Shown here piece after piece: positions 27,880-62,506 of a stretch of 64,000 bases of DNA. Origin of the DNA: a bacterium (GTDB taxonomy: Bacteria > UBA9089 > JAHJRX01); NCBI GenBank assembly GCA_018830565.1, contig JAHJRX010000045.1, forward strand, positions 10,626 to 74,625, read 5' to 3'. The notes under the pieces are model-generated. The model was given only the letters and a program-made list of their open reading frames with translations. It made no database searches and had not been told where the DNA came from. Numbering within the stretch: position 1 is the stretch's first letter; each line of letters opens with the position of its first letter. The position numbers and the translations under genes were made by a program.

Positions 27880-29178
27880 ATGCAGACCCAGTCAGAAAGA
27901 GCTAAAAATGGAGAAGTTACTAAGGAGATGAAGGATGTAGCGGAAAGAGAAGGTGTTTCTTGGGAATACATAAGAGACATGATAGCCAAAGGCAAAGTGG
28001 TTATTCCAGCTAATGTCAATCGGGAGTGTAATCCGGTAGGCATTGGCAAAGGATTAAAGACTAAGGTTAATGCCAGTATAGGCACCTCCCCTGATATTAT
28101 AAACTTAGAAATGGAGATAGATAAAGCAAAGATTGCGGAAAAATATCAAGCTGATACTTTGATGGAACTTTCCACAGGAGGAGATTTAGACTTAATAAGA
28201 AGAACTATCTTAAAAGCAATCTCTTTGCCAGTAGGAAATGTTCCTCTTTATCAAGCCGCTATAGAGACTATTCAAGAATTTGGTTCGGTGGTTAAGATGA
28301 AACCAGATTTTTTATTTGAAGTAATAGAAAAACAAGCCCGTGATGGCATTGGTTTCATGGCTATTCATTGTGGTATTAATTTAATCACCTTAGAACGTCT
28401 GAAGAAGCAAAATTATCGTTATGGTGGGTTAGTGAGTCGAGGAGGAGCTTTTATGACAGCTTGGATGCTTCATAACAAAGAAGAGAATCCCTTATATGCT
28501 CAATTTGGTCGCTTATTAGAGATTTTGAAAAGATACGACACGGTTCTTAGCTTGGGTAATGGCATGCGTGCTGGGGCTATTCATGATTCTTCCGATAGAG
28601 CTCAAGTGCAAGAATTAATCCTTAATTGCGAGTTAGCTGATGAAGCTAAAAAAGCAGGAGTTCAAGTAATCGTGGAAGGACCAGGTCATATTCCCATTGA
28701 TGAAATAGAAACCAATGTGATTATTCAGAAAAGAATGAGTGGAGAGGCTCCTTTTTATATGTTAGGTCCCTTAACCACCGATGTTGCCCCTGGTTATGAT
28801 CATATTTCTGCGGCGGTAGGCGCGGCTCTTTCTTCAGCCTATGGAGCTGATTTCATTTGTTATGTAACACCGCCAGAACATGTTGCTCTTCCCTTTCCTG
28901 AAGATGTCAAAGAGGGAGTAATTACTGCTAAAATTGCTACCCATATCGGTGATATGATTAAGCTTAATAAAAGAGAAGATGACTTAAAGATGGCTTATGC
29001 CCGTCGTAATTTAGATTGGAAAGAACAGTTCAAGTTAGCCATTAACCCAGAAAAAGCTGAAAAGTTAAGAGAAGAAAGAGCCCCCAAGGATAAGAGTACT
29101 TGTACGATGTGCGGAGAATATTGTGCCATCAAGATTGTCAATGAAACTTTTGCTTCTAAGATACCAGAGTGTAAATAA
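27880..29178 (+). CDS. thiC: phosphomethylpyrimidine synthase (short ThiC form)
   Basis: ThiC core plus C-terminal [11 protein letters not shown] iron-sulfur motif. Confidence 0.8.
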
Positions 29179-29536
29179 TGCCTTAGTAGGAAAATTTCAT
29201 TTGAATGCCACCAAAATTAAGCAATTTTTCTTTCCTGTAAAATCAAAAAGTTATTGCCTTCAGAAAAAAGTTCATTCTTCTGGGCTTCTTTTGTCTAAAA
29301 CTCCCCGTATTCATCCCAATCATTGCTTTTTGCTACTGAACGTAACTTCAGAATTAATTCAGCCCCACTAATTCCCCAGCAGGCCATTGATATTCCCATT
29401 CTATTCTTAACAATATGCCTACATGTTGACTTAACAACACCAGAACCTATCGGATGACCTCGGACTAAATATAGCCCTTATACCAAATTGCAATCAAATG
29501 TATAATAACAATTCGGTATAAATATGAAAAAACGGT

Positions 29537-29607
29537 TAAATCCGAATATCGAAATCCGAAATACGAAACAAATCCGAATACCAAAATTCAAAATCCAAAA
29601 CAATAAG
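29537..29607. repeat. degenerate tandem (AAATCCGAA-TA-CG)n array, about 14-bp period, 5 units
   Basis: Direct inspection; about 200 bp upstream of pseB. Confidence 0.6.
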
Positions 29608-29803
29608 ATATTTGAGATATTTAGTAGCTTGCAACATTTTATTTCTGATTGCAACTTGGTATGACAACATTCTGCAAATCTTTTCATGACAGTTTTTTTC
29701 ATAATTTCATCATTAGAATTGCTGACAAATAATATTATTGACATCAGGAAATATTTAATTTATACAAAAAGAGGAAATAAACTTTAAAAAAGTAGGTACA
29801 AAT

Positions 29804-40320: not shown

Positions 40321-40532
40321 TTTTAAAATCATTAAAATTTTGGCATAAATATTGCTAAAGATTTTTTAAGATTAACCGATATATAAGGTAGAACGATAAG
40401 TTAAAAGAAAAGTAATGATGAATCCTCCCTAAAATCATTACTTGAAAAAACATATCGATCGGAAATTAAAGTTCTCATTTAAGGCGGTTTTTTTAAAGTA
40501 ATTCTCATATCAAACAATTTCTCATATCAAAA

Positions 40533-40579
40533 GCTAAGTAAGTAGAGCTACCTATTTACTTAGCTATTTTTTTGGTTCT
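40533..40579 (+). terminator. rho-independent terminator closing the pse/maf transcription unit
   Basis: About 12-bp imperfect stem GCTAAGTAAGTAG/CTATTTACTTAGC followed by TATTTTTTT. Confidence 0.5.
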
Positions 40580-40997
40580 TTCTTATCGGATTCAAATATC
40601 CGCAATGTTGATGAATTTTTAGTTTAAAGTAATGAATGTCTTTATATCTATAAGCCATTCGTTTAAGCTGTTATCTTATTATTAAACCCCTCCGAGATAG
40701 CCGAGCTAATCTTCTTGTTAAACCAATTTAAGATATACTGAGTTCAAGATATACTGAGCTTTTTCTGCCATGATTTTCCTGCCATGCTATATATATATAA
40801 TATAAAAAATATAAGGTGTGATTAAAAAGGCTGGATTAGAATCAAATTTGTAAAATCTTATAATATTCTTATAATATAATGAGAATTGCTGCCAGTAGGA
40901 ATTTTCCTATTGACAAAATAAATTAGGTAATATAAACTAAAAAGACTTGATAAAAAGAGGGGGCTTTACTCTTTAATTCTTATGGGATGTTTTATTT

Positions 40998-41475: not shown

Positions 41476-42771
41476 ATGAAGATAGAACTCTACAATATTT
41501 TATCTCAAATTGAAAGTGAAAAAGGTATAAAGAAGCAATCTTTAGTAGGAACCATTGAAGATGCTTTAATGTCAGCTTATAAAAAAGACTATGGCGTTAA
41601 TGCTAATGTTAAGGTTAGTGTAAATATCAGCACAGAAGAGATAAAGATTCTTATTAAGAAAAAGGTAGTAGAAGAAGTAAAGAGTTCTTCTTTAGAGATA
41701 AGCATAGAAGAAGCCAAAAGAATAAATTCTCAGATAAAAATAGGAGAAGAAATAGAGATTGAAAATGAAATCAAAGATTTTGGTCGTATTGCTGCTCAAA
41801 CAGCTAAGCAAGTTATTACTCAAAGAATTCGAGAGGCAGAAAAAGAGATTATTTACACAAAATTTAGAGAAAAGATTGGAGATGTAATTACTGGTTCTGT
41901 TCAAACTATAGCCAAAGGAAATATCTATGTAAATTTAGGTAACATAGAAGGTATTTTATCTTCAAAAGAACAAATTCCTACAGAAGAATATGGAATAGGA
42001 GATAGAATTAAGAGTTATATTTCCGATGTCAAAATGGGTTTCAAGGGAACGTATGTTACCTTATCTCGAACTCATCCAAATTTAATTAAAAAATTATTCG
42101 AATTAGAGATTCCAGAAATTTATGAAAAAATAGTAGAAATAAAGTCGATAGCGAGGGATCCCGGTTTTCGTTCTAAGATTGCTGTAGTTTCTAATGATAG
42201 CTCTATTGACCCCGTAGGTACTTGTGTTGGGGTAAGAGGAACTCGGATTAATACTATTATTCAGGAACTTAATGAAGAAAAGATTGATGTAATTCTTTAT
42301 AATTCCGATCCAGTTGTTTTTATCAAAAATGCTTTAGGTCCAGTCAAAGTCACTAGTGTTACTATTAACAAAGAAGAGAAGCAAGCAAAGGTTATTATCC
42401 CCAATAACCAGCTTTCTTTGGCTATTGGAAAAAATGGACGAAATGTTAAGCTTGCCGCTAAATTAACTGGCTGGCGTATTGACATTCAAGGGGAAGAAAA
42501 ATTGAAAGAAGAATTGAAAGAAGAAACAACAAAAAAATTAGAAGCGATGACTGCTGGGACTAAAATAGAAAAAGTAGAAGAAACAGTAGAAGAAATTCCT
42601 CTTGATCTTCCAGGAGTAAGTAAGGTTATTGTTCAAAGATTAATAGAAGTTGGGTATAAAGATGGAGAAAGCATTTTAAAAGCTTCGGTAGAGGAATTAA
42701 CTAAGCTAAAAGGCGTAGGAAAGAATATTGCTGAAGTAATAAAAGTCTCTGCAAAGAGTATTAGTAAGTAG
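41476..42771 (+). CDS. nusA: transcription termination/antitermination factor NusA
   Basis: S1 and KH domains plus C-terminal HhH repeats; conserved operon. Confidence 0.9.
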   Translation: MKIELYNILSQIESEKGIKKQSLVGTIEDALMSAYKKDYGVNANVKVSVNISTEEIKILIKKKVVEEVKSSSLEISIEEAKRINSQIKIGEEIEIENEIKDFGRIAAQTAKQVITQRIREAEKEIIYTKFREKIGDVITGSVQTIAKGNIYVNLGNIEGILSSKEQIPTEEYGIGDRIKSYISDVKMGFKGTYVTLSRTHPNLIKKLFELEIPEIYEKIVEIKSIARDPGFRSKIAVVSNDSSIDPVGTCVGVRGTRINTIIQELNEEKIDVILYNSDPVVFIKNALGPVKVTSVTINKEEKQAKVIIPNNQLSLAIGKNGRNVKLAAKLTGWRIDIQGEEKLKEELKEETTKKLEAMTAGTKIEKVEETVEEIPLDLPGVSKVIVQRLIEVGYKDGESILKASVEELTKLKGVGKNIAEVIKVSAKSISK

Positions 42772-42783
42772 GTAAAGAGAGTA

Positions 42784-44799
42784 ATGCGTATTCATGAGTT
42801 AGCCAAAATATTAAATGTTTCTAGTAAAGAGCTTATCAAAGAGTTAACTTCTTTTGGTATTAAAGCTGCTTCTCATGTAAGCTCTATTGATAATGACACC
42901 ACGACGAAAATTATTAATCTTCATAAAAAGCTTGTTCCAGAGAAAAAAACTCCCTTACCTCTTAAAGAGGAAGAAGAACCTCTTATTAAAGAAGAACCTC
43001 TTATTAAAGAAATAAAAGAAGAAATAAAAGAAATAGAAAAGATTTCAAAAAAGCTTCATATCTTAAAGATTCCTGAATCTCTTACTATTGGAGAATTATC
43101 TGGCCATCTTCAAAAACCAGTTAATGAAGTTATTAAGATTTTAATCCAAAATGGAAAAGTATGCACTATAAATAATTATTACGATCAAGACATTTTAGAT
43201 ACTTTAGCCTTACACTATGACCTTGAATTTAAAATTATTACCGAAGAAGAGATCCTACTAAAGGAAGAAGTGGAAGATGAAGGCCAACTTGTTCCTCGAC
43301 CTCCTATTATTACCATTATGGGGCATGTAGATCATGGTAAAACATTGCTTTTAGATGCTATTCGAGCTTCTAGCGTCGCTTCTAAAGAAGCAGGAGGAAT
43401 TACTCAACACATTGGAGCTTATAAGGTTAAATTAGATAAGGGAGAAGTTGTATTTTTAGATACACCTGGGCATGAAGCTTTTACAGCAATGAGAGCTCGA
43501 GGTGCCTCAGTGACAGATATTGTAGTCTTAGTTGTAGCTGCTGATGATGGAGTAATGCCTCAAACGGTAGAAGCAATCAACCATGCTAAAGCAGCTAATG
43601 TTTCTATTGTGGTAGCTATTAATAAGATAGATTTACCTAATGCTAACTTAAATAAGGTAAAACAACAACTAGCCGAATATGATTTAGTTCCAGAAGAATG
43701 GGGAGGAAAGACTATTTTTGTAGAAGTTTCAGCTAAAAAGCAGCTAGGCTTAAAGAACATCTTGGAAATGTTGCTTTTAGAAGCAGAAATATTAGAGCTA
43801 AAAGCTAATCCTAATCAAAAAGCTAAAGGCACAGTAATTGAGGCTCATTTAAATAAATCTAAAGGACCAGTAGCTACTTTTTTAGTTCAAAAAGGAAGTT
43901 TGAAGATTGGAGATTTCTTTGTCGTAGGCCAATATTATGGAAGAGTAAGAGGAATGTTTAGTGATGCTGGAGCATGGATTAAGAAGGCCCTTCCTTCCAC
44001 TCCGGTGGAAGTTTTAGGACTTTCTGGTCTTCCTTTGGCGGGTGATTATTTTTTTGTTACAGAAAATGAGCGAGAAGCTCGACAAATGAGCTTAAAAAGG
44101 CAAGAAGCTTTAAAAAAGAAGAAAGAAGTAAGTTCAAAGAAAATAACCTTGGAGAACTTATTTGATCAAATTAAGCAAGGAAAAATTAAAGAACTTAATA
44201 TTGTCTTAAAAGCTGATGTTCAAGGTTCCGTAGAAGCAATTAGAGATTCCTTAACTAAATTAGAGACTGAAAAAGTAAAGATTAAGATTATTCATCAAGG
44301 AACTGGTGGAATTAATGAGTCAGATGTTTTATTAGCCCAAACCTCCCATGCGATCATTATAGGATTTAATGTTCGCCCTAATGCTAATGCAGCTAAAATA
44401 GCTTCTCATCAAGATATTAATATTAGAACTTATAGAATTATTTATGAGGTAATTTCTGATATCAAGAAAGCTTTAGAGGGACTATTAGAGCCAGAATATA
44501 AAGAAAATACCCTTGGTATAGCAGAAGCTAGAGATCTTTTTAAAACCCCTAAAATAGGAGTAATTGTTGGTTGTTATGTGCGAGAAGGAAAAGTTACTCG
44601 GAGTGCAAGTTTGCGAGTAGTAAGAGAAGGAATAGTAGTCTACGAAGGAAAGATTGCTTCTCTTCGTCGATTTAAAGATGATGCCTCGGAAGTAGCAGCT
44701 GGATTTGAATGTGGTCTTAAAATTGAAAATTTTGATGATGTAAAGATAGGTGATATTTTAGAAGTATATGTCTTAGAAAGGATACCAGCTAAACTTTAA
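42784..44799 (+). CDS. infB: translation initiation factor IF-2
   Basis: G-domain motifs [13 protein letters not shown] and NKID; IF-2 C-terminal domains. Confidence 0.9.
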
Positions 44800-44975
44800 A
44801 ATTTAATTTAAAAATCATTAACATTAAAGATAAAAAGCTAAGATAAAAAGTTAAGATAAAATTTTATTTCTGATTCTTACCTCTATTCTTACCTCTATTC
44901 ATTAATTTTCCCCTAATAACTATGGTTACAAGTACTTGGATCGCTAAACTTCATCTCCCATCAAAAGAGTAGTTA

Positions 44976-45338
44976 ATGACTATGAGCCATAATCTTCAAA
45001 GACATTTAAGAGTAGCAGAACTTATCAAAGAAGAGATTAGCACTTTAATTGTTACTAAAAAGATAAAGGATCCTCGAATTGGCTTTGCTACAGTCACCAA
45101 GGTAAAACTTTCTAAAGACTTAAAAAATTGCGATGTCTTTATAAGTATTTATGGAAATGAAGAAGAGATAAAAAGGACTTTAGAAGGACTATCTCAAGCT
45201 AAGGGATTTATTAAGGGTCAAATAGCTAAAAATCTTAACCTCAGATGTATTCCTTTCATCAACTTTAAACATGATTTATCTATAGAATACAGTGATCATA
45301 TTCTAAAGATTATCGAGGGGCTGAATATTCCTAAATGA
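44976..45338 (+). CDS. rbfA: ribosome-binding factor A
   Basis: KH-like RbfA fold motif; conserved position after infB. Confidence 0.8.
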   Translation: MTMSHNLQRHLRVAELIKEEISTLIVTKKIKDPRIGFATVTKVKLSKDLKNCDVFISIYGNEEEIKRTLEGLSQAKGFIKGQIAKNLNLRCIPFINFKHDLSIEYSDHILKIIEGLNIPK

Positions 45339-45571
45339 ATACTTCCGAAAGAGAGATAGATGGAGTACTAATAGATTGATGGTCTAAATATTCCTAAAGG
45401 AGTATATTCCTAAATGAATACTTCCAAAAGAGAGATAGATGGAGTACTAATAGATTGATGGTCTAAATATTCCTAAAGGAGTATATTCATAAATGAATAC
45501 TTCCAAAAGAGAGATAGATGGAGTACTAATAGATTGATGGTCTAAATATTCCTAAAGGAGTATATTCCTAA
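45335..45571 (+). repeat. 79-bp tandem repeat x3, duplicating the rbfA stop/truB start junction (each unit carries an RBS, an ATG and a 14-codon mini-ORF)
   Basis: Units start at 45335, 45414 and 45493, about 97% identical; the genuine truB start at 45572 repeats the first 37 nt of each unit. Confidence 0.85.
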
Positions 45572-46306
45572 ATGAATACTTCCGAAAGAGAGATAGATGG
45601 AGTACTAAATATTTATAAGTCTCAAAATTTGACCTCTCATGATGTTATCGTAAAATTAAGAAGACTCATCAAGATAAGAAAAATTGGACATACCGGAACT
45701 TTAGACCCTCAAGCTACTGGTGTCCTTTTAATTTGCCTCGGTCAAGCTACTAAACTTTCAAGTTGGTTATCTTCTAAAGGGAAAGAATATATTGCTGGAA
45801 TGAAGATAGGGGTTGTTACTGATACCCAGGATATTTGGGGAAGCATTCTTAGTAAAAAAGAACCAGTTAATTTAAAAGAAGAGCAAATAAAAGAAGCATT
45901 TTTACGTTTTACTGGAGAAATAACTCAGGTTCCTCCTATGTATTCTGCCGTTAAGTGGAAAGGAAAAAAGTTATATCAATTGGCCAGGAAGGGGTATATA
46001 GTAGAAAGAGTTCCGCGTAAAGTAATGATAAGCTCTTTAGAATTAATAAGCTATCAAGAAGATTCCTATCCAGAGGTAGTATTTAAAGTAAGTTGCTCTA
46101 CTGGAACTTATATTAGGACTTTATGTGAAGATATAGGTAACTATTTAGGATATGGAGGATGTTTGTCTTCTCTTGTCAGAACTAGGATTGATTCATTTCT
46201 TCTTGAAGACACCCTCACTTTAGAAAAACTTACTAAAATCATAGAAAATGACCTTCTTTTTAATTACTTAATACCCATAGAAAAAGTGTTAAATGGCTTC
46301 TCATGA
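45572..46306 (+). CDS. truB: tRNA pseudouridine(55) synthase
   Basis: GHTGTLDPQATGVLLI catalytic motif. Confidence 0.85.
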   Translation: MNTSEREIDGVLNIYKSQNLTSHDVIVKLRRLIKIRKIGHTGTLDPQATGVLLICLGQATKLSSWLSSKGKEYIAGMKIGVVTDTQDIWGSILSKKEPVNLKEEQIKEAFLRFTGEITQVPPMYSAVKWKGKKLYQLARKGYIVERVPRKVMISSLELISYQEDSYPEVVFKVSCSTGTYIRTLCEDIGNYLGYGGCLSSLVRTRIDSFLLEDTLTLEKLTKIIENDLLFNYLIPIEKVLNGFS

Positions 46307-47444: not shown

Positions 47445-47714
47445 ATGGTCTTAGCTTTAGAAGATAAGAAAAACATTATTGAAAAATTTAAGCAACATGA
47501 AAGCGACACTGGTTCACCAGAAGTTCAAATTGCTATACTTAGTGCTCGCATTAGTTATTTAACGGAACATTTTAAAGTTTATCCTAAAGACCATCATTCT
47601 CGAAGAGGATTACTTAAGCTTGTTTCTCAAAGGAGAAGTCTTTTGGATTATTTAAAGAAGAAAGATAGTAATCGTTATCTTGTTCTTATCAAGAAACTAA
47701 ATATACGAAAGTAA
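47445..47714 (+). CDS. rpsO: 30S ribosomal protein S15
   Basis: 89 aa; GSPEVQIA and HHSRRGLL motifs; precedes pnp. Confidence 0.9.
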
Positions 47715-47822
47715 AAGAAAGATAGGAATCGTTATTCTTTATCAAGAAACTAAATATACGAAAGTAAAAGAAAGATAGGAATCGTTATTCTTTATCAAGA
47801 AACTAAATATACGAAAACAAAA
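47659..47822 (+). repeat. tandem repeat of about 53 bp x3, derived from the rpsO 3' end, in the rpsO-pnp intergenic region
   Basis: Native rpsO tail (58 bp) followed by two near-identical 53-bp copies starting at 47717 and 47770. Confidence 0.8.
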
Positions 47823-47835
47823 GAAAGGATTTTAC

Positions 47836-49917
47836 ATGTTTAGCACACAACAAGAAATTGCAGGTAGAGTTTTATCTATAGAGACAGGGAATTTGGCTAA
47901 CCAAGCCAATGGCGCAGTGGTAATAAGATATGGAGATACTGTCATTATGGTGGCAGCAGTAGCCTCTAAAGAGGCAAAAAAAGATCTAGACTTTTTTCCC
48001 TTAATTTGCGAACACAAAGAAAGAACATATGCTGCTGGAAAATTCCCAGGTGGTTTTATAAAGAGAGAAGGACGCTCTACAGAGAAGGAAATATTAACTT
48101 CTCGGTTGATCGATCGTCCTTTACGGCCTCTTTTTAATAAGGATTTTCGAAATGAGGTAGCGATTACCTCGACTGTGTTTTCCTATGACGGGGAAAATAG
48201 TTCTGATATTATCTCGATAATTGGTGCTTCAGCAGCCTTAATTATTTCAGATATTCCATTTGACAAACCTATTGGCGTGGTTCGTATTGGAAGGATAAAT
48301 GATAAATTTATTGTTAACCCAACCCTTAAGGAACAAAAAGAAAGTTCTTTAGATTTAGTTATTGCCGGAACTAACTCTTCTATAATGATGATTGAATGTG
48401 GAGCTTCTGAGGTTTCAGAAAGATTAATTTTAGAAGCTCTTGAATTTAGTCAGGAACATATAAGAAGGATAATAAAACTACAAGAAGATTTATATCAACA
48501 ATACCATAAAGAAAAATTGATTTTTGAAAATTTTACTGTGAATAAACAATTAAAGAATTTAGTCAGTGAATTTATAGAGCCAAAGGTGAGAAATATAAAT
48601 TTTGGACTGACTAAGCAAGAATGGCAAAAACAAATGGAGAGTGTTGAAAAAGAGACGATAGAAAGATTTAAAGATCAATTTCCAGGAAAAGAGGGTGAAA
48701 TTAAAGCAGTTATAGAAGAAAATGAGAAAGTGGTGATTCGGGAACGAATTATTAAAGAAGAGAAAAGGCCTGATGGTCGAGATCCTAAAGCTATTCGTTC
48801 TATTACTTGCCAGGTAGGTATCTTACCTCGAACTCATGGTTCTGGATTATTTACTCGAGGTCAAACTCAAGCTTTAGTAGTTACTACTTTAGGAACAGAA
48901 GAAGATGAACAAATCGTTGATAGCCTTGAAGGCAAAAATAGAAAGAAATTTATGTTACACTATAATTTTCCCTCTTATAGCATAGGCGAAACTAAGCCTG
49001 ATCGTGGTCCTGGAAGACGAGAAATAGGTCATGGAGCTTTAGCCGAAAGAGCTCTTTCTCCTCTTATTCCTAATGGAGAGGTCTTTCCTTATACTATTAG
49101 AGTAGTTTCAGATATTTTAGAATCTAATGGTTCTACCTCTATGGCCAGTGTCTGCGGAGGTACTTTATCCTTGATGGATGCGGGAGTTCCTATCCAAAGG
49201 CCTTGCTCTGGAATTGCCATGGGACTTATTGCCAGCCAAGAAAAGATTATTATTTTGAGCGACATTACCGGGTTAGAAGACCAGATTGGTGATATGGATT
49301 TTAAAGTAGCCGGGACAAGCGAAGGAATTACTGCTTTACAATTAGACGTTAAGGTAGAAGGCTTAAGTGTAGAAATGCTTAAGGGAGCTTTACACCAAGC
49401 TTATGAAGGACGACTCTTTATTTTAGGGGAGATGAATAAAAGCATTCAAAAGTCTGCCGAGAAAATTTCTATTTATGCTCCTCGGATTATTAAGATAGGA
49501 ATAAATCCTGATAAAATTAGAGATGTCATTGGTCCTGGAGGAAAAATTATTCGAAATATTATTGAGCTTACTGGAGCTAAGATTGATATTAAAGATAAAG
49601 GAGAAGTTTCTATTTCTTCTTGCGATGAAGAAAAAGCTAATCAAGCTTTAGAAATGATTAATTGTTTAATAGCTGAAGTAGAGGTAGGAAAAATTTATCA
49701 AGGAAAAGTAATCAGGATAACAAATTTTGGAGCTTTTGTAGAGGTGTTACCAGGAAAAGAAGGATTGGTTCACATTTCTCAATTAGCTAACTACCATGTT
49801 AGAAAAGTAGAGGATATTTTAAAAGAAGGCGATAAAGTCTTAGTAAAAGTAATGGAGATTGATGAACAAGGTCGAATTAATTTAAGTCGTAAAGCTGCTT
49901 TAACGGACAAAGGTTAG
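47836..49917 (+). CDS. pnp: polyribonucleotide nucleotidyltransferase (PNPase)
   Basis: Two RNase PH domains, KH and S1 domains. Confidence 0.9.
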   Translation: MFSTQQEIAGRVLSIETGNLANQANGAVVIRYGDTVIMVAAVASKEAKKDLDFFPLICEHKERTYAAGKFPGGFIKREGRSTEKEILTSRLIDRPLRPLFNKDFRNEVAITSTVFSYDGENSSDIISIIGASAALIISDIPFDKPIGVVRIGRINDKFIVNPTLKEQKESSLDLVIAGTNSSIMMIECGASEVSERLILEALEFSQEHIRRIIKLQEDLYQQYHKEKLIFENFTVNKQLKNLVSEFIEPKVRNINFGLTKQEWQKQMESVEKETIERFKDQFPGKEGEIKAVIEENEKVVIRERIIKEEKRPDGRDPKAIRSITCQVGILPRTHGSGLFTRGQTQALVVTTLGTEEDEQIVDSLEGKNRKKFMLHYNFPSYSIGETKPDRGPGRREIGHGALAERALSPLIPNGEVFPYTIRVVSDILESNGSTSMASVCGGTLSLMDAGVPIQRPCSGIAMGLIASQEKIIILSDITGLEDQIGDMDFKVAGTSEGITALQLDVKVEGLSVEMLKGALHQAYEGRLFILGEMNKSIQKSAEKISIYAPRIIKIGINPDKIRDVIGPGGKIIRNIIELTGAKIDIKDKGEVSISSCDEEKANQALEMINCLIAEVEVGKIYQGKVIRITNFGAFVEVLPGKEGLVHISQLANYHVRKVEDILKEGDKVLVKVMEIDEQGRINLSRKAALTDKG

Positions 49918-56357: not shown

Positions 56358-56966
56358 ATGAGTGTAGCTAATATCTTAACTCTTACTAGAGTTTTACTTG
56401 TCCCACCATTCTTATACTTTATTTCCTGTAAGAGTTTCTTTTTTCAAAACGTGGCTTTATTTATCTTTATCTTAGCCGCCGTAACTGACATGTTAGATGG
56501 ATATTTTGCCAGGCGGAATAAGATTATTACTAACTGGGGAAAATTTATGGACCCCTTAGCTGATAAAATATTAATTTCTGCTGCTTTTATCTCATTCGTG
56601 AGTATTCCTTCTTTATATATTCCTGCTTGGATGGTGGTTTTAATTATTAGTAGAGAATTTATTATTACTGGCCTGCGATTAATTGCCAGCAATGAAGGAA
56701 CGGTAGTAGCTGCTTCTATGGAAGGCAAAGTAAAGACTACTTCTCAAATTATAACTATTATTGCCATTTTGCTTCTCCTTACCTTCAAAAGTTATCTTAA
56801 TCAAGATAATATTTATCAAAGTTTAAGTTACGAACCGAGACTTTTTATAGAGTATATTTTTCACTTACTTCCTTACTCTTTAGTTCTCGCCACTACCTTC
56901 TTTACTTTATATTCAGGAGTAAGTTATCTTATTGAGTATAAGGACTTAGTTTGTGATTTAAGATAG
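56358..56966 (+). CDS. pgsA: CDP-diacylglycerol--glycerol-3-phosphate 3-phosphatidyltransferase
   Basis: CDP-alcohol phosphatidyltransferase motif DGYFAR...G...DPLADK. Confidence 0.75.
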   Translation: MSVANILTLTRVLLVPPFLYFISCKSFFFQNVALFIFILAAVTDMLDGYFARRNKIITNWGKFMDPLADKILISAAFISFVSIPSLYIPAWMVVLIISREFIITGLRLIASNEGTVVAASMEGKVKTTSQIITIIAILLLLTFKSYLNQDNIYQSLSYEPRLFIEYIFHLLPYSLVLATTFFTLYSGVSYLIEYKDLVCDLR

Positions 56967-57068
56967 CCAGTCTTTTATTATCTATAAGGACTTATTTTGG
57001 GATTTAAGATAGCCAGTCTTTTATTATCTATAAGGACTTATTTTGGGATTTAAGATAGCCAGATCTTT
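56931..57068 (+). repeat. 46-bp tandem repeat x3 spanning the pgsA stop / pgpA start junction
   Basis: Units at 56931, 56977 and 57023; the third unit carries a 1-nt insertion and substitutions that create the pgpA reading frame. Confidence 0.8.
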
Positions 57069-57522
57069 TATTATCTACTTGGCTTCTTTGTCTTTTGTAG
57101 GATATTTTCCTTTTTTTCCTGGAACACTGGGAACTTTATTAGCTTTGTTGGCTTATCTATATTTATCTAAGGTTACCTTAAGTGTTTTTTGGTATGGTTT
57201 AATCTTAGTTTCATTAATATTGATCGGTGTTCTTATCTGTCATTTAGCGGAAAAATTTTTAAGCGAAAAGGACCCACCCCAAATAATCTTAGATGAATTT
57301 TTAGGATATCTAGTGGCTGTTTTCTTAATTCCCTTTGACCTAAGAAATATAGTTGCTTCTTTCCTTTTGTTTCGATTTTTAGACATAAGTAAACCTTTTT
57401 TTATAAAGAAACTTCAAAATATCTCAGGAGGAATAGGGATCTTAGCTGATGATTTAGCCGCTGGAATAATAACTAATTTAATTCTTCGCCTAAGTCAGTT
57501 ACTTGAGAAATTAATTAAATAA
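57043..57522 (+). CDS. pgpA: phosphatidylglycerophosphatase A
   Basis: PgpA-family motifs (FPGTLGTLLA, DEFLGY); TTG start inside the third repeat unit. Confidence 0.6.
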   Translation: MGFKIARSFIIYLASLSFVGYFPFFPGTLGTLLALLAYLYLSKVTLSVFWYGLILVSLILIGVLICHLAEKFLSEKDPPQIILDEFLGYLVAVFLIPFDLRNIVASFLLFRFLDISKPFFIKKLQNISGGIGILADDLAAGIITNLILRLSQLLEKLIK

Positions 57523-57559: not shown

Positions 57560-58144
57560 ATGAGCTTTAATCAATCAAGTTTAAACTTTATCAGAACTTT
57601 TATCGCTATTAATATTGAAGATAAGATAAAAGAGGAGATAAGTAAGATTATAAAAGCCTTAAAGAATGATCAAGATGAAATTAAGTGGATAGAAAAAGAA
57701 TCCTTTCATCTTACTCTTAAATTTTTAGGAAATGTAAGGATCTTCCAAGTGGAAGAAATTTATGAGAAACTTCAAATTATTGCTGGTAGTATTTTACCTT
57801 TTAAGATAAGCTTCTCTAATTTAGACATAATTCTAAATAAAAAGACACCTAAGATTATTTGGGTGGGCATAAAAGAAGGGAGTAAAGAACTAATGGAATT
57901 AACCGAAGAGATAGAAATTTCATTAGCCGACCTGGGTTTTCTTAAAGAAGAAAGAAGATATACTCCTCATCTGACCTTAGGAAGAATCAAAAGAATAAAT
58001 GAGAGAGAGAACTTCATAGAAAAGGCCAAGAAGATAGATCATTTAGAGGCTCATTCTTTTATAGCTAAGAAGATAGGAATTATAAAGAGCACTCTTACCC
58101 CAAAAGGAGCTGTTTATACCCAACTTAAGGAGGTGTTTTTGTAA
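57560..58144 (+). CDS. thpR: RNA 2',3'-cyclic phosphodiesterase (2H family, ThpR/LigT)
   Basis: Two H-x-T-x motifs (HLTLKFLG, HLTLGRIK). Confidence 0.75.
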   Translation: MSFNQSSLNFIRTFIAINIEDKIKEEISKIIKALKNDQDEIKWIEKESFHLTLKFLGNVRIFQVEEIYEKLQIIAGSILPFKISFSNLDIILNKKTPKIIWVGIKEGSKELMELTEEIEISLADLGFLKEERRYTPHLTLGRIKRINERENFIEKAKKIDHLEAHSFIAKKIGIIKSTLTPKGAVYTQLKEVFL

Positions 58145-58188: not shown

Positions 58189-58394
58189 AGATTTGTAACT
58201 ATTTACCCAAGTGAAGTGCCTTTTCTGTAACTCATTGAAATTCATTTCAAATTTAATTTGCAATGAAGTTTTTTTTAAAGAACACTTCAGTTGAATAGAG
58301 TGTTACTAAGATTTTAATATTGCTGTAACAAAGATTTTAATATTGCTTGACAAAATAATAGTCTATCTTTTAAAATAAAAAAAAAGGAGGATGA

Positions 58395-59453
58395 TTGGTG
58401 GTTTTAACGCAAGAAAGTAAAGAAAAAGCTTTAGATATGGCCATATCTCAAATTGAAAAACAATTTGGGAAAGGTTCAGTCATGCGATTAGGAGATGAAA
58501 GGATAATAAAAGATATCTCTGTAATTCCTACCGGATCTTTATCTTTAGACATTGCTATTGGTGTGGGAGGGATACCCCGAGGCAGGGTAATTGAAATTTA
58601 TGGCCAGGAATCTTCGGGAAAGACCACTTTAACTCTTCATATCATTGCTCAGGCCCAAAAACAAGGGGGCATAGCTGCTTTTATTGATGCAGAGCATGCC
58701 TTAGATCCAACCCATGCTAAAAAGATTGGAGTAGATATAGATAGTTTGTTAATCTCCCAACCTGATACCGGAGAGCAAGCTTTGGAAATTACGGAGACTT
58801 TAGTCAGAAGTGGAGCTATAGATGTGGTGGTCATTGATTCTGTAGCTGCTTTGACACCCAAAGCTGAAATTGAAGGTGAAATGGGAGATAGTCATATGGG
58901 CTTACAAGCTCGTTTAATGTCACAAGCTTTACGTAAATTAACGGCCGTAGTGAGCAAGTCCAATACCGCAGTTATCTTTATTAATCAAATTCGGATGAAG
59001 ATAGGGGTGATGTTTGGTAATCCAGAAACTACTACCGGTGGAAATGCTCTTAAATTTTACTCTTCTTTAAGATTAGACATGCGTACTATAGAATTAATTA
59101 AAGAAGGAGATGTGGTTATTGGTAACCGCGTAAAAGTAAAAGTAGCTAAAAATAAGATTGCTCCTCCTTTTAGGATTGCCGAGTTTGATATGATTTATAA
59201 GAGTGGTATTTCTTATGAAGGAAGTTTAATTGATTTAGCTTTAGAGAATAATTTTGTTCAAAGATCTGGTGCTTGGTTTTCTCTGGGGGACACCCGTTTA
59301 GGCCAAGGGCGAGAAAATGTCAAGAAATATCTCTTTGAGAATAAAGAAATCTGTAATCAATTAGAACAAGAGATTAAAAAGAAGTACCCATTTATTTATC
59401 TTTATTCTGAAAGTCAAGCTCTTAAGGAGTCTTCTAATCGCAAGGAAGATTAG
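58395..59453 (+). CDS. recA: recombinase RecA
   Basis: Walker [10 protein letters not shown]; RecA L1/L2 loops; 352 aa. Confidence 0.95.
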
Positions 59454-59514: not shown

Positions 59515-60507
59515 ATGCCCGGAGAAAAAATCTTAATTGTTGACGATGATCTAGAAATAGCTTTGGTCTTGAAAGCAATCTTTGAAAAAGAGAACTTTAG
59601 GCCTTATGCAGTTAATAATGGAAAGGAAGCTGTGGAATTAGCCAGGACATTATTTCCAGATCTAATTATTTTAGATATCCTTATGCCTAAGATTAGTGGT
59701 TATGAGGTATGTAAAAAACTACGGCATGATTTTCATACCAGTCATATTCCCATTATTGTTTTATCCGTTAAAGATCATACTCTTGACAAGATCAAAGGAT
59801 TAAAGATAGGAGCAGATGATTATGTCACTAAACCATTTAGTAGTGAAGAATTAGTAGCTCGGATTAAAGCGGTCTTACGTCGGACTCATTTAGAAAGGGA
59901 TTGTAACCCTTTAACTCAATTACCAGGAAATCTGGCGATTGAACATCAAATTAAGAATAGATTAAACTTAGGATTGCCCTTTGGTTTTATGTATGCAGAT
60001 TTAGATAATTTTAAACCTTTTAATGATTATCATGGATATAGTAGGGGAGATTTAGCCATTAAACTTTTAGCTAATATTATCTTAAGTTCGATAAAAAAGC
60101 ATGGAAATTTGGATGACTTTGTAGGTCATATCGGGGGAGATGATTTTATTATTATTACCCGAAAGATAGAGTCTATCGAGGATATTTGTAAGAATATTAT
60201 CGAGAATTTAAAAGTATCTTCCCTTGATCTCTTTGGCCAAAAAGATCGTCAGCAAGGCTATTTTGAAATACTTGATCGCCGAGGAAATGCTAAAAAGTTT
60301 CCTGCCCGTTTAGACATTACTATTGCTATTACCTCTAACCAATATGCAAGCTTTACTAACTCTTTACAGATTAGTGATACTTTAGCTGAAATAAAGAAGT
60401 ATGGCAAACAAGTAGAAGGAAGTGTTTTCATTATTGATCGCAGGGAAAAAAAGAAAATTACTAAACTTACAGATGTTATAGTACCGATTAATGAAAATTT
60501 GACTTAG
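59515..60507 (+). CDS. response regulator with REC domain plus GGDEF-type domain carrying a GGDDF motif (paralog 1)
   Basis: REC motifs DDD/D53-like/K; GGDEF-domain landmarks NPLTQLPGN, ADLDNFKPFNDYHGYSRGD, GHIGGDDF. Confidence 0.7.
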   Translation: MPGEKILIVDDDLEIALVLKAIFEKENFRPYAVNNGKEAVELARTLFPDLIILDILMPKISGYEVCKKLRHDFHTSHIPIIVLSVKDHTLDKIKGLKIGADDYVTKPFSSEELVARIKAVLRRTHLERDCNPLTQLPGNLAIEHQIKNRLNLGLPFGFMYADLDNFKPFNDYHGYSRGDLAIKLLANIILSSIKKHGNLDDFVGHIGGDDFIIITRKIESIEDICKNIIENLKVSSLDLFGQKDRQQGYFEILDRRGNAKKFPARLDITIAITSNQYASFTNSLQISDTLAEIKKYGKQVEGSVFIIDRREKKKITKLTDVIVPINENLT

Positions 60508-60545
60508 AGCAAATTAGTTTGACTCCAAACGAGTTTATCTTTTAT
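60486..60545 (-). repeat. intergenic repeat element, copy E (reverse orientation), overlapping the last 7 codons of paralog 1
   Basis: Reverse complement matches the core of copies A and C, including the AATTTG-CTCTAAGT-CAAATT hairpin. Confidence 0.75.
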
Positions 60546-60576
60546 TACTTAATATCATTATTCCAAAACAACTACT

Positions 60577-61536
60577 ATGCCATTTCAAAAGGATAATATG
60601 GCTGGCGAATTAATATTATTAGTAGATGATGAAGTAGATATGCTTAATCTTTTAAAAAGCTTCTTCATGGAAAATGGTTATTCCTGTATAGAAGCTCAAA
60701 GCGGTATTCAAGCTCTTGAAATTGCTCGAATGATTCATCCTGATTTGATTGTTTTAGATATTATGATGCCTCATATGGATGGCTTTGTTGTATGTCAAAA
60801 GCTAAAGAATGATTATGTGACCAGTCATATTCCTATTGTGCTTCTTACTGTAAAAAGAGAAACTTCTGATCGGGTAAAAGGCTTAGAATTAGGGGCTGAT
60901 GATTATATAGCTAAACCATTTGATCTTTCTGAGCTCTTGGCTCGAGTTAAAGCGGTCTTACGTCGGACTCATTTAGAAAGGGATTGTAACCCTTTAACTC
61001 AATTACCAGGAAATCTGGCTATTGAACATCAAATTAAGAATAGATTAAAGAATGATACTCCTTTTGCCTTTTTATATGCCGACATAGATGATTTTAAGTT
61101 TTTTAATGATTATTATGGATATAGTAGGGGTGATTACGCCATTAAGACTTTTTCTAATGTGATCTTGTCTTCGATAAGAAAGCACGGAAGTTCAGAGGAT
61201 TTTGTAGGTCATATCGGGGGAGATGATTTTATTGTTATTACTAAGTTAGAGGCAGCTATTGACATTTGTAAAGACATTATTGAAAATACTGCCTTTTCTA
61301 TACCTCAATTATTTGATGAAGAAGATCTAAAGAGAGGTTATTTTGAAACCTTGACCCGAAGAGGAAAGAAAAAAGTTGCTGCTAATCTTACCGTGACTAT
61401 TGCAGTAACTACTACTGAATACAGTCAGTTTGAAAATTCCATGGAAATAAGTAGCATCTTAGCAGCGCTAAAACGTTATGGGAAGAACAAAGGTGGCAAT
61501 CTTTATGTAGTAGATCGGCGAAAAAAAGTTAGATAG
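60577..61536 (+). CDS. REC-GGDEF(GGDDF) response regulator, paralog 2
   Basis: Same architecture as paralog 1; shares a 100-nt near-identical patch with paralog 1. Confidence 0.7.
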   Translation: MPFQKDNMAGELILLVDDEVDMLNLLKSFFMENGYSCIEAQSGIQALEIARMIHPDLIVLDIMMPHMDGFVVCQKLKNDYVTSHIPIVLLTVKRETSDRVKGLELGADDYIAKPFDLSELLARVKAVLRRTHLERDCNPLTQLPGNLAIEHQIKNRLKNDTPFAFLYADIDDFKFFNDYYGYSRGDYAIKTFSNVILSSIRKHGSSEDFVGHIGGDDFIVITKLEAAIDICKDIIENTAFSIPQLFDEEDLKRGYFETLTRRGKKKVAANLTVTIAVTTTEYSQFENSMEISSILAALKRYGKNKGGNLYVVDRRKKVR

Positions 61537-61570
61537 GGATAGATAGAGATTAGATAGGAGTGGAAAAGGT

Positions 61571-62506
61571 ATGGATAAAGAGACGATCTTAATTGTGGAT
61601 GATGATCTTGATTTAACTGAAATCCTAAAAACTGTTTTACAGAAAAAAGGTTATAAAACCCTTATTGCGGAAAATGGTTTTTTAGCCTTGGAATTAGCCT
61701 TTAATCATAACCCATCTTTAATCTTGTTAGATGTGATGATGCCTGAGTTAGATGGCTTTGGAGTATGTCAAAAACTAAGAGATAATTTTTATACCAGTCA
61801 TATTCCTATCATTATGTTAACTTGTCGGGAGGAGTTAGAGAGTAAAGTTAAAGGACTTACTTTAGGAGCAGATGATTATGTAACTAAGCCTTTTAATTTT
61901 TCAGAGCTTTTAGCTCGCATTAAAGCTGTCTTAAGACGAACCCATAGGGAACGAGGTTCTAATCCTTTAACAGCTTTACCAGGGGGCAACTTAATTGAAG
62001 AACAAATAAAGAAGAGATTAAGGGAAGGTAAATATTCAGCTTTCTTATATTTAGACTTAAATTACTTCAAGGCTTATAATGATTATTATGGATACAAGAG
62101 AGGTGATCAGGTTATTAAGCATCTGGCTGAAGTTTTGCTTACCGCAATTGAGAAAGATAAAGATAGGGATGATTTTGTTGGTCATATCGGGGGAGATGAT
62201 TTTATTATTATTACTACTCCTCAAAAATCAGAAGTATTAGCTAATCAAATTATTAAGAAGATAGAAGAGACTTCTCACCAGTTTTTTGAGGATCGGGATT
62301 TAAAGGCTAGGTCTATTGAGATTAAGACTCGATCAGGGGAGGTAAATAAGTATCCGGCCAAAATTACTGTTACCATCGGGGGTATTTCTAGTCAAGATCT
62401 GAATATAAAGAGCCATATTCAGGTAAGTGATTCCTTAGCAGAAATTAAGCGATATTTAAAGAAAAAAGAAGGAAGTAATTTTATGGTAGAGAGAAGAAAA
62501 ATTTAA
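61571..62506 (+). CDS. REC-GGDEF(GGDDF) response regulator, paralog 3
   Basis: Same architecture as paralogs 1 and 2; more divergent. Confidence 0.7.
   Translation: MDKETILIVDDDLDLTEILKTVLQKKGYKTLIAENGFLALELAFNHNPSLILLDVMMPELDGFGVCQKLRDNFYTSHIPIIMLTCREELESKVKGLTLGADDYVTKPFNFSELLARIKAVLRRTHRERGSNPLTALPGGNLIEEQIKKRLREGKYSAFLYLDLNYFKAYNDYYGYKRGDQVIKHLAEVLLTAIEKDKDRDDFVGHIGGDDFIIITTPQKSEVLANQIIKKIEETSHQFFEDRDLKARSIEIKTRSGEVNKYPAKITVTIGGISSQDLNIKSHIQVSDSLAEIKRYLKKKEGSNFMVERRKI

What the first reader, a model, noticed from the sequence alone, without database searches (positions are those of the whole stretch)
56931..57068. Triplicated pgsA/pgpA junction; the pgpA N-terminus is created by an indel in the third unit
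This is the same phenomenon as at rbfA/truB. Here the downstream gene starts at a TTG inside the third 46-bp unit, which differs from the others by a 1-nt insertion, so unit-number changes or slippage would switch pgpA translation on or off. Three independent junction triplications in 64 kb (with 47659-47822) suggest a genome-wide mechanism.
Basis: seen in the sequence. Interest (0 to 1): 0.5.

Follow-up and report, generated by a model that had tools for sequence, protein, structure and literature searches.

The report
Variable tandem repeat spanning pgsA/pgpA junction
A 46-base stretch covering the end of one lipid-synthesis gene and the start of the next has been copied head to tail two or three times in this uncultured bacterium; both genes stay intact, so it looks like an ordinary, fast-changing minisatellite and not a genetic switch.

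Summary
The repeat is real: three head-to-tail units (46, 46, 47 nt) at 56937-57075, TRF score 259 against at most 83 in shuffles. pgsA ends in unit 1. pgpA starts at TTG 57043 in unit 3, behind an AAGGA Shine-Dalgarno.

Four related species have a single-copy junction where pgsA and pgpA overlap by 10 nt. They share the same SD, TTG-GGA start and N-terminus (MGxKIxR, Arg7 invariant). The "extra" A lies in the Arg7 codon, so unit 3 is ancestral and the upstream units carry a 1-nt deletion.

Near-identical strains (99.2-99.97%) carry 2 or 3 units, in four haplotypes that unequal crossover explains. pgpA is in frame in all seven contigs, because its start lies in the last unit.

The same pattern occurs at rbfA/truB, rpsO/pnp and a fourth site (panC) just outside the window. 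The units share no sequence with each other. Junction location is non-random (p about 0.004), but selection explains it: only junction-spanning duplications with periods not divisible by 3 leave genes intact.

Verdict: a copy-number-variable minisatellite made by local duplication across an overlapping gene junction, in a repeat-prone lineage. It is a known kind, as in Ehrlichia ruminantium, Wolbachia VNTRs and MIRU-VNTRs.

The parts
56358..56966 (+). pgsA (CDP-diacylglycerol--glycerol-3-phosphate 3-phosphatidyltransferase). Its last 30 nt, including the TAG stop at 56964-56966, lie in repeat unit 1.
   Evidence: ORF. NCBIfam TIGR00560 at 151 bits against a cutoff of 109. PF01066.
56937..56982 (+). 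Repeat unit 1 (46 nt, lacks the A). It carries the working 3' end of pgsA. Its copy of the pgpA start is disabled in this allele: TTG-TGA start-stop at 56951-56956.
56983..57028 (+). Repeat unit 2 (46 nt, lacks the A). It is a redundant hybrid: its left part matches unit 3 and its right part matches unit 1. It carries a decoy SD and TTG.
   Evidence: It is absent from the 2-unit alleles L001, L002, L003, L005 and L028.
56997..57053 (+). Decoy small ORF of 18 codons (MGFKIASLLLSIRTYFGI*). It starts at unit 2's copy of the pgpA TTG. Its TAA stop overlaps the real pgpA start by 11 nt.
   Evidence: Its sequence and presence differ between haplotypes, so it is not conserved.
57029..57075 (+). Repeat unit 3 (47 nt). 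This is the ancestral-type copy and holds the working pgpA SD, TTG start and first 11 codons. The A at 57063 completes the Arg7 codon AGA (57061-57063).
   Evidence: Arg7 is invariant in alignment A2.
57032..57036 (+). Shine-Dalgarno AAGGA, 6 nt upstream of the pgpA TTG.
   Evidence: A[AG]GGA is conserved at the same distance in four relatives. An SD core lies upstream of 29 of 55 genes, against 16% background.
57043..57522 (+). pgpA (phosphatidylglycerophosphatase A, 159 aa), with a TTG start.
   Evidence: PF04608. The N-terminus is conserved in P0002-P0006.
45325..45608 (+). Sister array at rbfA/truB: 79 nt x 3.6. Each unit holds a copy of the truB start (MNTSEREIDGVLID*) and a decayed copy of the rbfA tail. 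The real truB ATG (45572) is in the last copy.
   Evidence: The relative L031 has a single-copy ATGA overlap.
47658..47827 (+). Sister array at rpsO/pnp: 57 + 53 + 53 nt. Unit 1 is the working rpsO 3' end. Units 2 and 3 are copies with a 4-nt deletion. The array ends 9 nt before the pnp ATG. A 7-nt microhomology (AAGAAAG) lies at the unit boundaries.
   Evidence: Sister contigs carry 2 or 3 units.

Best explanation
This is a copy-number-variable minisatellite made by local tandem duplication of about 46 nt across an ancestrally overlapping pgsA/pgpA junction.

Shown:
- The ancestor had a single junction in which the pgpA TTG start and its AAGGA SD lay inside the last codons of pgsA.
- In this species that segment now exists in 2 or 3 head-to-tail copies.
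- The first copy supplies the pgsA stop. The last copy supplies the pgpA SD, start and first 11 codons.
- The copies in between are redundant and are decaying: a 1-nt deletion, and a TGG to TGT change that turns one decoy start into TTG-TGA.
- Unit number differs between genomes that are 99.2-99.97% identical. The middle units of the two 3-unit alleles differ in the way expected from unequal crossover or slippage at different points in a 2-unit array.

Inferred:
- The first duplication arose by replication slippage or illegitimate recombination at short microhomology (TTATTnnnTA at both unit boundaries).
- Such arrays sit at gene boundaries because, in an 89%-coding genome, a duplication whose length is not a multiple of 3 survives only if it spans a gene end. 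There it leaves both flanking ORFs intact.
- The array has no dedicated function. Its main side effect is to move the pgsA stop from an overlap of 10-16 nt to 30 or 76 nt upstream of the pgpA start. That probably loosens translational coupling and leaves pgpA dependent on its own SD.
For: Repeat reality.

Ancestral single-copy overlap: L007, L008, L025 and L026 all have pgsA and pgpA overlapping by 10 nt, with A[AG]GGA-N6-TTGGGA. None has a tandem repeat at the junction.

N-terminus is ancestral and translated: MG[VIF]KI[VGA]R is conserved. Arg7 is invariant but encoded by AGG, AGA, CGC and CGG in the relatives.

Copy-number variation and haplotypes:
- H1 = 2 units (L001, L003, L005).
- H2 = 2 units (L002, L028).
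- H3 = window, 3 units with a hybrid middle unit.
- H4 = L004, 3 units with the middle unit identical to the last.
Strain identity is 99.2-99.97%. pgpA is in frame in all of them.

Same anatomy elsewhere:
- rpsO/pnp has 2 or 3 units.
- rbfA/truB has a single-copy ATGA overlap in the relative L031.
- The panC 5' end is triplicated at L028 18897-19039.

Local origin: the units share no similarity with each other and occur nowhere else in the window.

Selection filter:
- Coding fraction is 0.89. Random placement covers a gene 3' end with p = 0.24, 0.15 and 0.12, a product of 0.004.
- All 4 fully intragenic tandem repeats have periods divisible by 3, against 1 of 10 others. My calculation gives a hypergeometric p of 5/1001 = 0.005.

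No sign of another function: no promoter or terminator excess, folding z = -1.5, no Rfam family.
Against: Copy-number differences come from metagenome assemblies, not reads. The MEGAHIT (k141) contigs always show 2 units, so some differences could be assembly collapse. However, MAGs deposited in one accession series (presumably one pipeline, not verified) show both 2 and 3 units, and the two 3-unit alleles differ in sequence.

Four arrays in about 74 kb is a high density, and I cannot explain it from this window. Three of the four include the SD and start of the downstream gene. In haplotypes H1 and H4 the decoy ORFs form an unbroken chain of overlapping reading frames from pgsA to pgpA. That would also fit a selected translational relay.

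Neutrality is inferred, not measured.
Confidence: 0.8

Rival explanations
1. Phase-variable (contingency) switch. Gain or loss of units, or slippage at the 1-nt indel, turns pgpA translation on and off.
For: The unit length (46 nt) is not a multiple of 3, and the last unit differs by 1 nt. Unit number does vary between strains. A crossover in the 14 nt to the right of the indel could, in principle, place an A-less unit next to pgpA.
Against: The start codon is in the last unit, so whole-unit changes upstream cannot shift its frame. All 7 contigs and all 4 haplotypes are in frame. The indel (CCAG[A]TCT) is not in a homopolymer or other slippery tract. The A is ancestral and lies in an invariant Arg codon. 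Arrays of only 2-3 long units are unlike known contingency loci. pgpA is a housekeeping lipid-synthesis gene in an operon with pgsA.
Confidence: 0.04
2. Selected translational tuner or relay. The duplicated SD + TTG units act as decoy or relay small ORFs that set how much pgpA is made relative to pgsA, and copy number tunes that ratio.
For: Every unit carries AAGGA-N6-TTG. In H1 and H4 the decoy ORFs overlap each other and pgpA by 11-16 nt, giving an unbroken chain from pgsA. Three of the four arrays duplicate the downstream gene's start. Termination-reinitiation coupling is reported to need overlaps or very short gaps (title and abstract of PMC10666635), so a relay would restore what the duplication breaks.
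Against: The chain is broken in H2 and in the window (H3) by TTG-TGA in unit 1. The decoy peptides differ between haplotypes (18 aa, 20 aa or none). The rpsO/pnp array contains no start codon for pnp. Relatives manage with a plain overlap. There is no expression data.
Confidence: 0.1
3. Assembly artefact. The triplication, or the 2-versus-3 difference, is produced by the assembler and does not exist in cells.
For: Several contigs end inside or at the arrays: L009-L011 and L017-L019. All MEGAHIT k141 contigs carry 2 units. The window and the ERZ27247117 contig are 99.97% identical yet differ in unit number.
Against: The array, with at least 2 units, is present in every independent assembly: ENA, NCBI MAGs, JGI and Logan. 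The units differ by diagnostic substitutions and an indel, which reads of 150 nt can phase. The two 3-unit alleles have different middle units. NCBI MAGs deposited in one accession series (presumably one pipeline) show both 2 and 3 units. GCA_018813185.1 has 3 units at pgsA/pgpA but 2 at rpsO/pnp.
Confidence: 0.04
4. Interspersed mobile repeat of the MIRU or MITE type, inserted at intercistronic sites.
For: The unit sizes (46, 53, 79 nt) and the intercistronic position, with small ORFs overlapping the flanking genes, resemble the published description of MIRUs (PMC3184786).
Against: The three units share no similarity above shuffled controls, and none occurs elsewhere in the window. Each unit is simply the local gene-end sequence, homologous to the single-copy junction of relatives. 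There are no inverted repeats.
Confidence: 0.02

Closest known systems
Actively variable tandem repeats of Ehrlichia ruminantium (Collins et al. 2005 PNAS; Frutos et al. 2006 J Bacteriol). I could not read the primary papers here. They are cited via PMC10710844 and PMC3287509, and partly from my own memory.
   Same: Many tandem repeats with units of tens to hundreds of bases lie between genes. Their copy number differs between very close strains, and they are ascribed to slipped-strand mispairing. Gene-end fragments are associated with the repeats (that last point is from memory). With the same TRF settings the window gives 219 rows/Mb and 1.55% of bases. E. ruminantium gives 133/Mb and 6.3%, and E. 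coli 19/Mb and 0.38%.
   Different: The organism here is an uncultured groundwater bacterium with 89% coding density, not an obligate intracellular pathogen with about 64% coding. The arrays are short (2-3.6 units) and still leave tight operons. The density estimate rests on only 64-74 kb.
Intergenic VNTR loci used for MLVA typing (for example Wolbachia VNTR-105/141, PMC3287509)
   Same: Minisatellite-sized units lie between conserved single-copy genes. Copy number is polymorphic among near-identical strains, and units show internal deletions. Slippage plus concerted evolution is the proposed mechanism.
   Different: Here the unit can be traced base for base to an overlapping stop/start junction that is still single-copy in relatives, so origin and polarity can be reconstructed. 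No hairpins were detected.
MIRU-VNTR of Mycobacterium tuberculosis (Supply et al. 1997, as described in PMC3184786)
   Same: Repeats of 40-100 bp lie between genes of polycistronic operons. They contain small ORFs whose ends overlap the flanking genes, and their copy number varies.
   Different: MIRUs are one dispersed sequence family at about 40-50 loci, with signs of transposition. Here each array has its own locally derived sequence and there is no family.
Simple-sequence contingency loci (phase variation by slipped-strand mispairing in Haemophilus and Neisseria; from my own knowledge)
   Same: A repeat tract whose length is not a multiple of 3 lies near a translation start, and copy number is variable.
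   Different: In contingency loci the tract lies inside the ORF or between promoter elements, so unit changes alter frame or spacing. Their units are 1-7 nt with many copies. Here the start codon is in the last unit and all alleles are in frame.

Membership tests
Bacterial minisatellite / VNTR | Head-to-tail copies of a 10-100 nt unit, far beyond chance | tested here: met
   46 nt x 3.0, 96% matches, score 259, against a maximum of 83 in 30 shuffles.
Bacterial minisatellite / VNTR | Unit number differs among closely related strains | tested here: met
   Contigs 99.2-99.97% identical carry 2 or 3 units, in four haplotypes. This comes from assemblies, not reads, so confirmation is still desirable.
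Phase-variable contingency locus | A change in unit number shifts the reading frame or promoter spacing of the controlled gene | tested here: not met
   The start codon and SD lie in the last unit. The 2- and 3-unit alleles both read into pgpA in frame.
Phase-variable contingency locus | On and off alleles coexist in populations | tested here: not met
   7 of 7 contigs are in frame. The sample is small and there is no read-level data.
MIRU / MITE-like interspersed repeat | The same unit sequence is dispersed at many loci | tested here: not met
   The units of the three arrays are no more similar than shuffled controls. There are no other copies in the window.
MIRU / MITE-like interspersed repeat | Intercistronic position, with small ORFs overlapping the flanking genes | tested here: inconclusive
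   True in haplotypes H1 and H4. Broken by TTG-TGA in H2 and in the window.
Ehrlichia ruminantium-type repeat-rich genome | Genome-wide high density of tandem repeats with active copy-number change | tested here: inconclusive
   219 TRF rows/Mb and 1.55% of bases in 64 kb, plus a fourth array in the next 10 kb. The whole genome was not available.
PgpA (PF04608), start at TTG 57043 | N-terminal residues upstream of the conserved GxxPxxPGTxG motif are conserved in orthologues | tested here: met
   MG[VIF]KI[VGA]R[FS]..IY is shared with P0002-P0006. R7 and I11 are invariant. R7 is encoded by four different codons in the relatives.
PgsA (TIGR00560) | Score above the curated cutoff | tested here: met
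   151 bits against 109.1.

The most novel reading that the evidence does not exclude
This uncultured groundwater lineage may be undergoing a genome-wide burst of minisatellite formation that specifically 'unzips' overlapping or abutting genes. It would replace stop/start overlaps with chains of decoy SD + start units whose number tunes translational coupling within operons. That would be a free-living counterpart of the Ehrlichia ruminantium repeat dynamics, with a regulatory consequence.
Probability: 0.1. Interest if true: 0.55.

Novelty: new member of a known kind. Interest (0 to 1): 0.25.

Why it matters
The main value is as a clean worked example. The single-copy ancestral junction survives in relatives, so one can see base by base how a tandem duplication resolves a gene overlap without harming either gene, how the redundant copies decay, and how unequal crossover produces new alleles.

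There are three practical points:
- These arrays break metagenome contigs and may be collapsed by assemblers.
- Gene callers will meet decoy starts at them.
- They would make good strain-typing markers for this population.

If the density of about 4 arrays per 74 kb holds genome-wide, the lineage would rank among the most repeat-rich bacteria outside the Anaplasmataceae. That would raise the question of which replication or repair property causes it.

Tried and rejected
- **Metagenome DNA-pattern scan** for last-unit alleles with or without the A: no hits.
- **Metagenome protein scan** with the PgpA alignment: only one distant locus.
- **Genome-contig scan:** returned only the relative already found, plus two distant Spirochaetota/Brevinematales MAGs at 35-46% identity. 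The species itself was not returned.
- **RecA search for taxonomy:** uninformative. The closest hits are unnamed 'bacterium' MAGs and the named ones are scattered across phyla.
- **RNA element, terminator or promoter in the array:** rejected. The scans are at or below shuffle expectation, folding z = -1.5, and there is no Rfam family.
- **Interspersed element:** rejected.
- **A downstream pgpA start at the in-frame TTG 57079:** considered and judged unlikely. It has no SD, and the 12 codons before it are conserved as protein in relatives.
- **Primary E. ruminantium genome paper (PMC545511):** could not be read.
- **rpsO/pnp junction in a relative:** could not be checked, because synteny differs after truB in L031.

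Full report
**1. Observation**

The sequence at 56937-57075 consists of three head-to-tail units of 46, 46 and 47 nt.
- TRF reports period 46, 3.0 copies, 96% matches and score 259. The repeat finder shows the three copies in register.
- Thirty dinucleotide-preserving shuffles of the window never exceeded a TRF score of 83. The window contains three arrays scoring 547, 276 and 259.
- The upstream ORF (56358-56966) is pgsA: TIGR00560 at 151 bits against a cutoff of 109. Its TAG stop (56964-56966) lies in unit 1.
- The downstream ORF (57043-57522) is PgpA (PF04608). It starts at a TTG in unit 3.
- Unit 3 reads CCAGATCT where units 1 and 2 read CCAGTCT.

**2. What the junction looked like before duplication**

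A search with PgpA found five orthologues at 55-68% identity (P0002-P0006). Their N-termini align with the window protein from residue 1 (MG[VIF]KI[VGA]R[FS]..IY). Arg7 and Ile11 are invariant.

Contigs for four of them (L007, L008, L025, L026) show a single-copy junction.
- pgsA and pgpA overlap by 10 nt.
- The sequence is A[AG]GGA, six bases, then TTGGGA[AG]TAA.
- None has a tandem repeat there.
- Arg7 is encoded by AGG, AGA, CGC and CGG in these four. That is the signature of a translated, constrained codon.
- In the window the same codon is AGA at 57061-57063, and its last base is the 'extra' A.

Unit 3 is therefore the ancestral sequence. The 1-nt difference is a deletion in the upstream, redundant copies. 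It is not an insertion that created a new N-terminus.

Other evidence supports the TTG 57043 start. It has AAGGA at 57032-57036 with a 6-nt spacer. An SD core is present upstream of 29 of 55 genes, against 16% background. The next in-frame TTG (57079) has no SD.

**3. Variation between strains**

The exact PgpA protein is encoded on six other contigs, from ENA, NCBI MAG and other assemblies. Aligning the junctions gives four haplotypes.

| Haplotype | Contigs | Units | Structure |
|---|---|---|---|
| H1 | L001, L003, L005 | 2 | unit 1 without A (TTTGGGA), unit 2 with A |
| H2 | L002 = L006 = L028 | 2 | as H1, but unit 1 has TTTGTGA |
| H3 | window | 3 | H2 plus a middle unit: left half like the last unit, right half (no A) like the first |
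| H4 | L004 | 3 | H1 plus a middle unit identical to the last unit (with A) |

Hybrids of this kind are what unequal crossover or slippage between the two units of a 2-unit array produces. The crossover would fall left of the indel for H3 and right of it for H4. The two 3-unit alleles are therefore independent expansions.

The contigs are 99.2-99.97% identical to the window outside the arrays. L028 shows 2 mismatches in 11.5 kb. Unit number thus changes much faster than base substitution accumulates.

In all seven sequences the last unit carries the A, and pgpA is in frame with its TTG.

One caveat applies. These are assemblies, and all MEGAHIT k141 contigs show 2 units. Read-level confirmation is needed, although MAGs deposited in one accession series show both states.

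**4.

The start codon and SD are inside the last unit. Adding or removing whole units upstream cannot change the pgpA frame, and the observed 2- and 3-unit alleles confirm this. The indel is not in a slippery tract. I found no out-of-frame allele. The on/off model is therefore not supported.

The redundant units do carry decoy starts.
- In H1 and H4 they give 18- or 20-codon ORFs. These overlap pgsA, each other and pgpA by 11-16 nt, forming an unbroken chain.
- In H2 and in the window, unit 1 is TTG-TGA (start-stop).
- The window's unit 2 encodes an 18-codon ORF (56997-57053) whose stop overlaps the pgpA start.

The decoys differ between haplotypes, so I see no evidence that they are selected.

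The array moves the pgsA stop from an overlap to 30 or 76 nt upstream of the pgpA start. By published work on termination-reinitiation (PMC10666635, PMC6728339), this should weaken direct coupling.

**5. The other arrays**

- **rbfA/truB (45325-45608).** There are 3.6 units of 79 nt. Each holds a copy of the truB start (MNTSEREIDGVLID*) and a decayed copy of the rbfA tail. The real ATG (45572) is in the last copy. In the relative L031 the two genes overlap by ATGA in single copy, and there is no tandem repeat in 7.7 kb. Sister contigs break inside the array and show a different unit order.
- **rpsO/pnp (47658-47827).** Unit 1 is the working rpsO 3' end. Units 2 and 3 are copies with a 4-nt deletion. 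The boundaries share the 7-nt microhomology AAGAAAG. Sister contigs have 2 or 3 units.
- **panC.** A fourth array lies 6 kb beyond the window end, in the sister contig: L028 18897-19039, 48 nt x 2.9, 82% matches. It triplicates the 5' end of panC, and again the last copy is the real one.

The units of the different arrays share no similarity above shuffled controls, and none occurs elsewhere in the window. Each array is locally derived. This is not an interspersed family such as MIRU.

**6. Why at junctions**

The window is 89% coding, and 15 of 48 co-directional gaps are 10 nt or less. Random placement of the three arrays would cover a gene 3' end with probabilities 0.24, 0.15 and 0.12, a product of 0.004. 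The location is therefore non-random.

A tandem duplication that spans a gene end leaves both neighbours intact. One of 46, 53 or 79 nt inside a gene would frameshift it.

The smaller repeats are consistent with such a filter. With TRF 2/7/7/50, all four fully intragenic repeats have periods of 12 or 18. Only one of the ten intergenic or junction repeats has a period divisible by 3. My calculation gives a hypergeometric p of 5/1001 = 0.005. A junction-targeted mechanism is not required.

What remains unexplained is the high rate of such duplications in this lineage. With the settings used in Table 4 of PMC3287509, the figures are as follows.

| Genome | TRF rows per Mb | % of bases in repeats |
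|---|---|---|
| This window | 219 | 1.55 |
| E. coli K-12 | 19 | 0.38 |
| Wolbachia wMel | 73 | 1.6 |
| E. ruminantium | 133 | 6.3 |

The window sample is small, so this comparison is only indicative.

**7. Other functions considered**

- There is no excess of promoter- or terminator-like sites.
- The array RNA does not fold better than shuffles (z = -1.5).
- No Rfam family reaches threshold.

**8. Comparison with known systems and verdict**

The array meets the definition of a bacterial minisatellite or VNTR.
- It works like the intergenic VNTRs of Wolbachia and the actively variable repeats of E. ruminantium (PMC3287509, PMC10710844).
- It resembles MIRU-VNTRs in position and in having small ORFs overlapping the neighbours (PMC3184786). 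It fails the MIRU criterion of a dispersed family.
- It fails the defining features of a phase-variation locus.

I rate it a new member of a known kind, of modest interest. Its value is the reconstructable history and the hint that this uncultured groundwater lineage is unusually repeat-prone. NCBI labels the organism only 'bacterium'. The nearest named PgpA relatives are Spirochaetota/Brevinematales MAGs at 35-46% identity.

Noticed in passing
L028 18897-19039 (- strand); about 6 kb beyond the window's right end in the sister contig ERZ27247117 k141_265102: A fourth junction array: 48 nt x 2.9, 82% matches. It triplicates the SD and first 11-12 codons of panC (MKIITKIKEIHK*, MEIVTKIKEIHR*, then the real MEIIAKIKEIQEK...). 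It is older and more diverged than the three arrays in the window.
   Followed up: partly
window 58301-58354 (between thpR 57560-58144 and recA 58395-59453); L001 4285-5713: A 23-nt x 2.4 tandem repeat lies in the thpR-recA spacer. In L001, L003 and L005 a roughly 1.4-kb insertion encoding a 432-aa HTH_23/28/29 (transposase-like) protein sits exactly inside this repeat. It is absent from the window, L002 and L004. The window's own 432-aa ORF at 27880-29178 is unrelated to it (29 of 433 positions identical).
   Followed up: partly
L009-L011 (ends inside the rbfA/truB array); L017-L019 (ends at or in the rpsO/pnp array): Several independent metagenome contigs terminate inside these arrays. All MEGAHIT k141 contigs carry the lower unit number. 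The arrays are assembly breakpoints and may be collapsed by assemblers.
   Followed up: partly
window 56953-56955 (pgsA codon TGT; TGG in L001, L003, L004, L005): A strain polymorphism changes the pgsA C-terminus from ...DLVWDLR* to ...DLVCDLR*. Relatives have W. The same change converts unit 1's decoy start into TTG-TGA (start-stop).
   Followed up: yes
window 59515-62506: Three consecutive paralogous response-regulator/GGDEF genes (330, 319 and 311 aa). Parts of neighbouring copies are about 79% identical at the DNA level (59655-60158 against 60738-61241).
   Followed up: no
window 47804-47975 (- strand): A sub-threshold Rfam hit to Listeria sRNA rliD (42 bits, gathering score 50), antisense to the 5' end of pnp. 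As far as I recall, rliD is antisense to pnpA in Listeria. If so, this probably reflects conservation of the pnp coding sequence and not an sRNA.
   Followed up: no
window 44800-44975 (infB-rbfA spacer); L031 2774-3067: The relative L031 has a DUF503 gene between infB and rbfA. The window has only a 176-nt spacer there, containing two small tandem repeats (13 nt x 2.7 at 44827-44861 and 12 nt x 2.3 at 44873-44900). This may be a remnant of gene loss.
   Followed up: no
window 42957-43032 (infB N-terminal region) and 41629-41713: In-frame tandem repeats of 18, 12 and 36 nt lie inside coding regions; the infB ones encode EEPLIK-like peptide repeats. All intragenic repeats found have periods divisible by 3.
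   Followed up: partly
window 29179-29803 and 40321-40997: Two unusually long gaps without an ORF (625 and 677 nt) in an otherwise dense region. The first holds a 32-nt x 2.1 repeat (29538-29603). No Rfam family was detected at gathering threshold in either.
   Followed up: no
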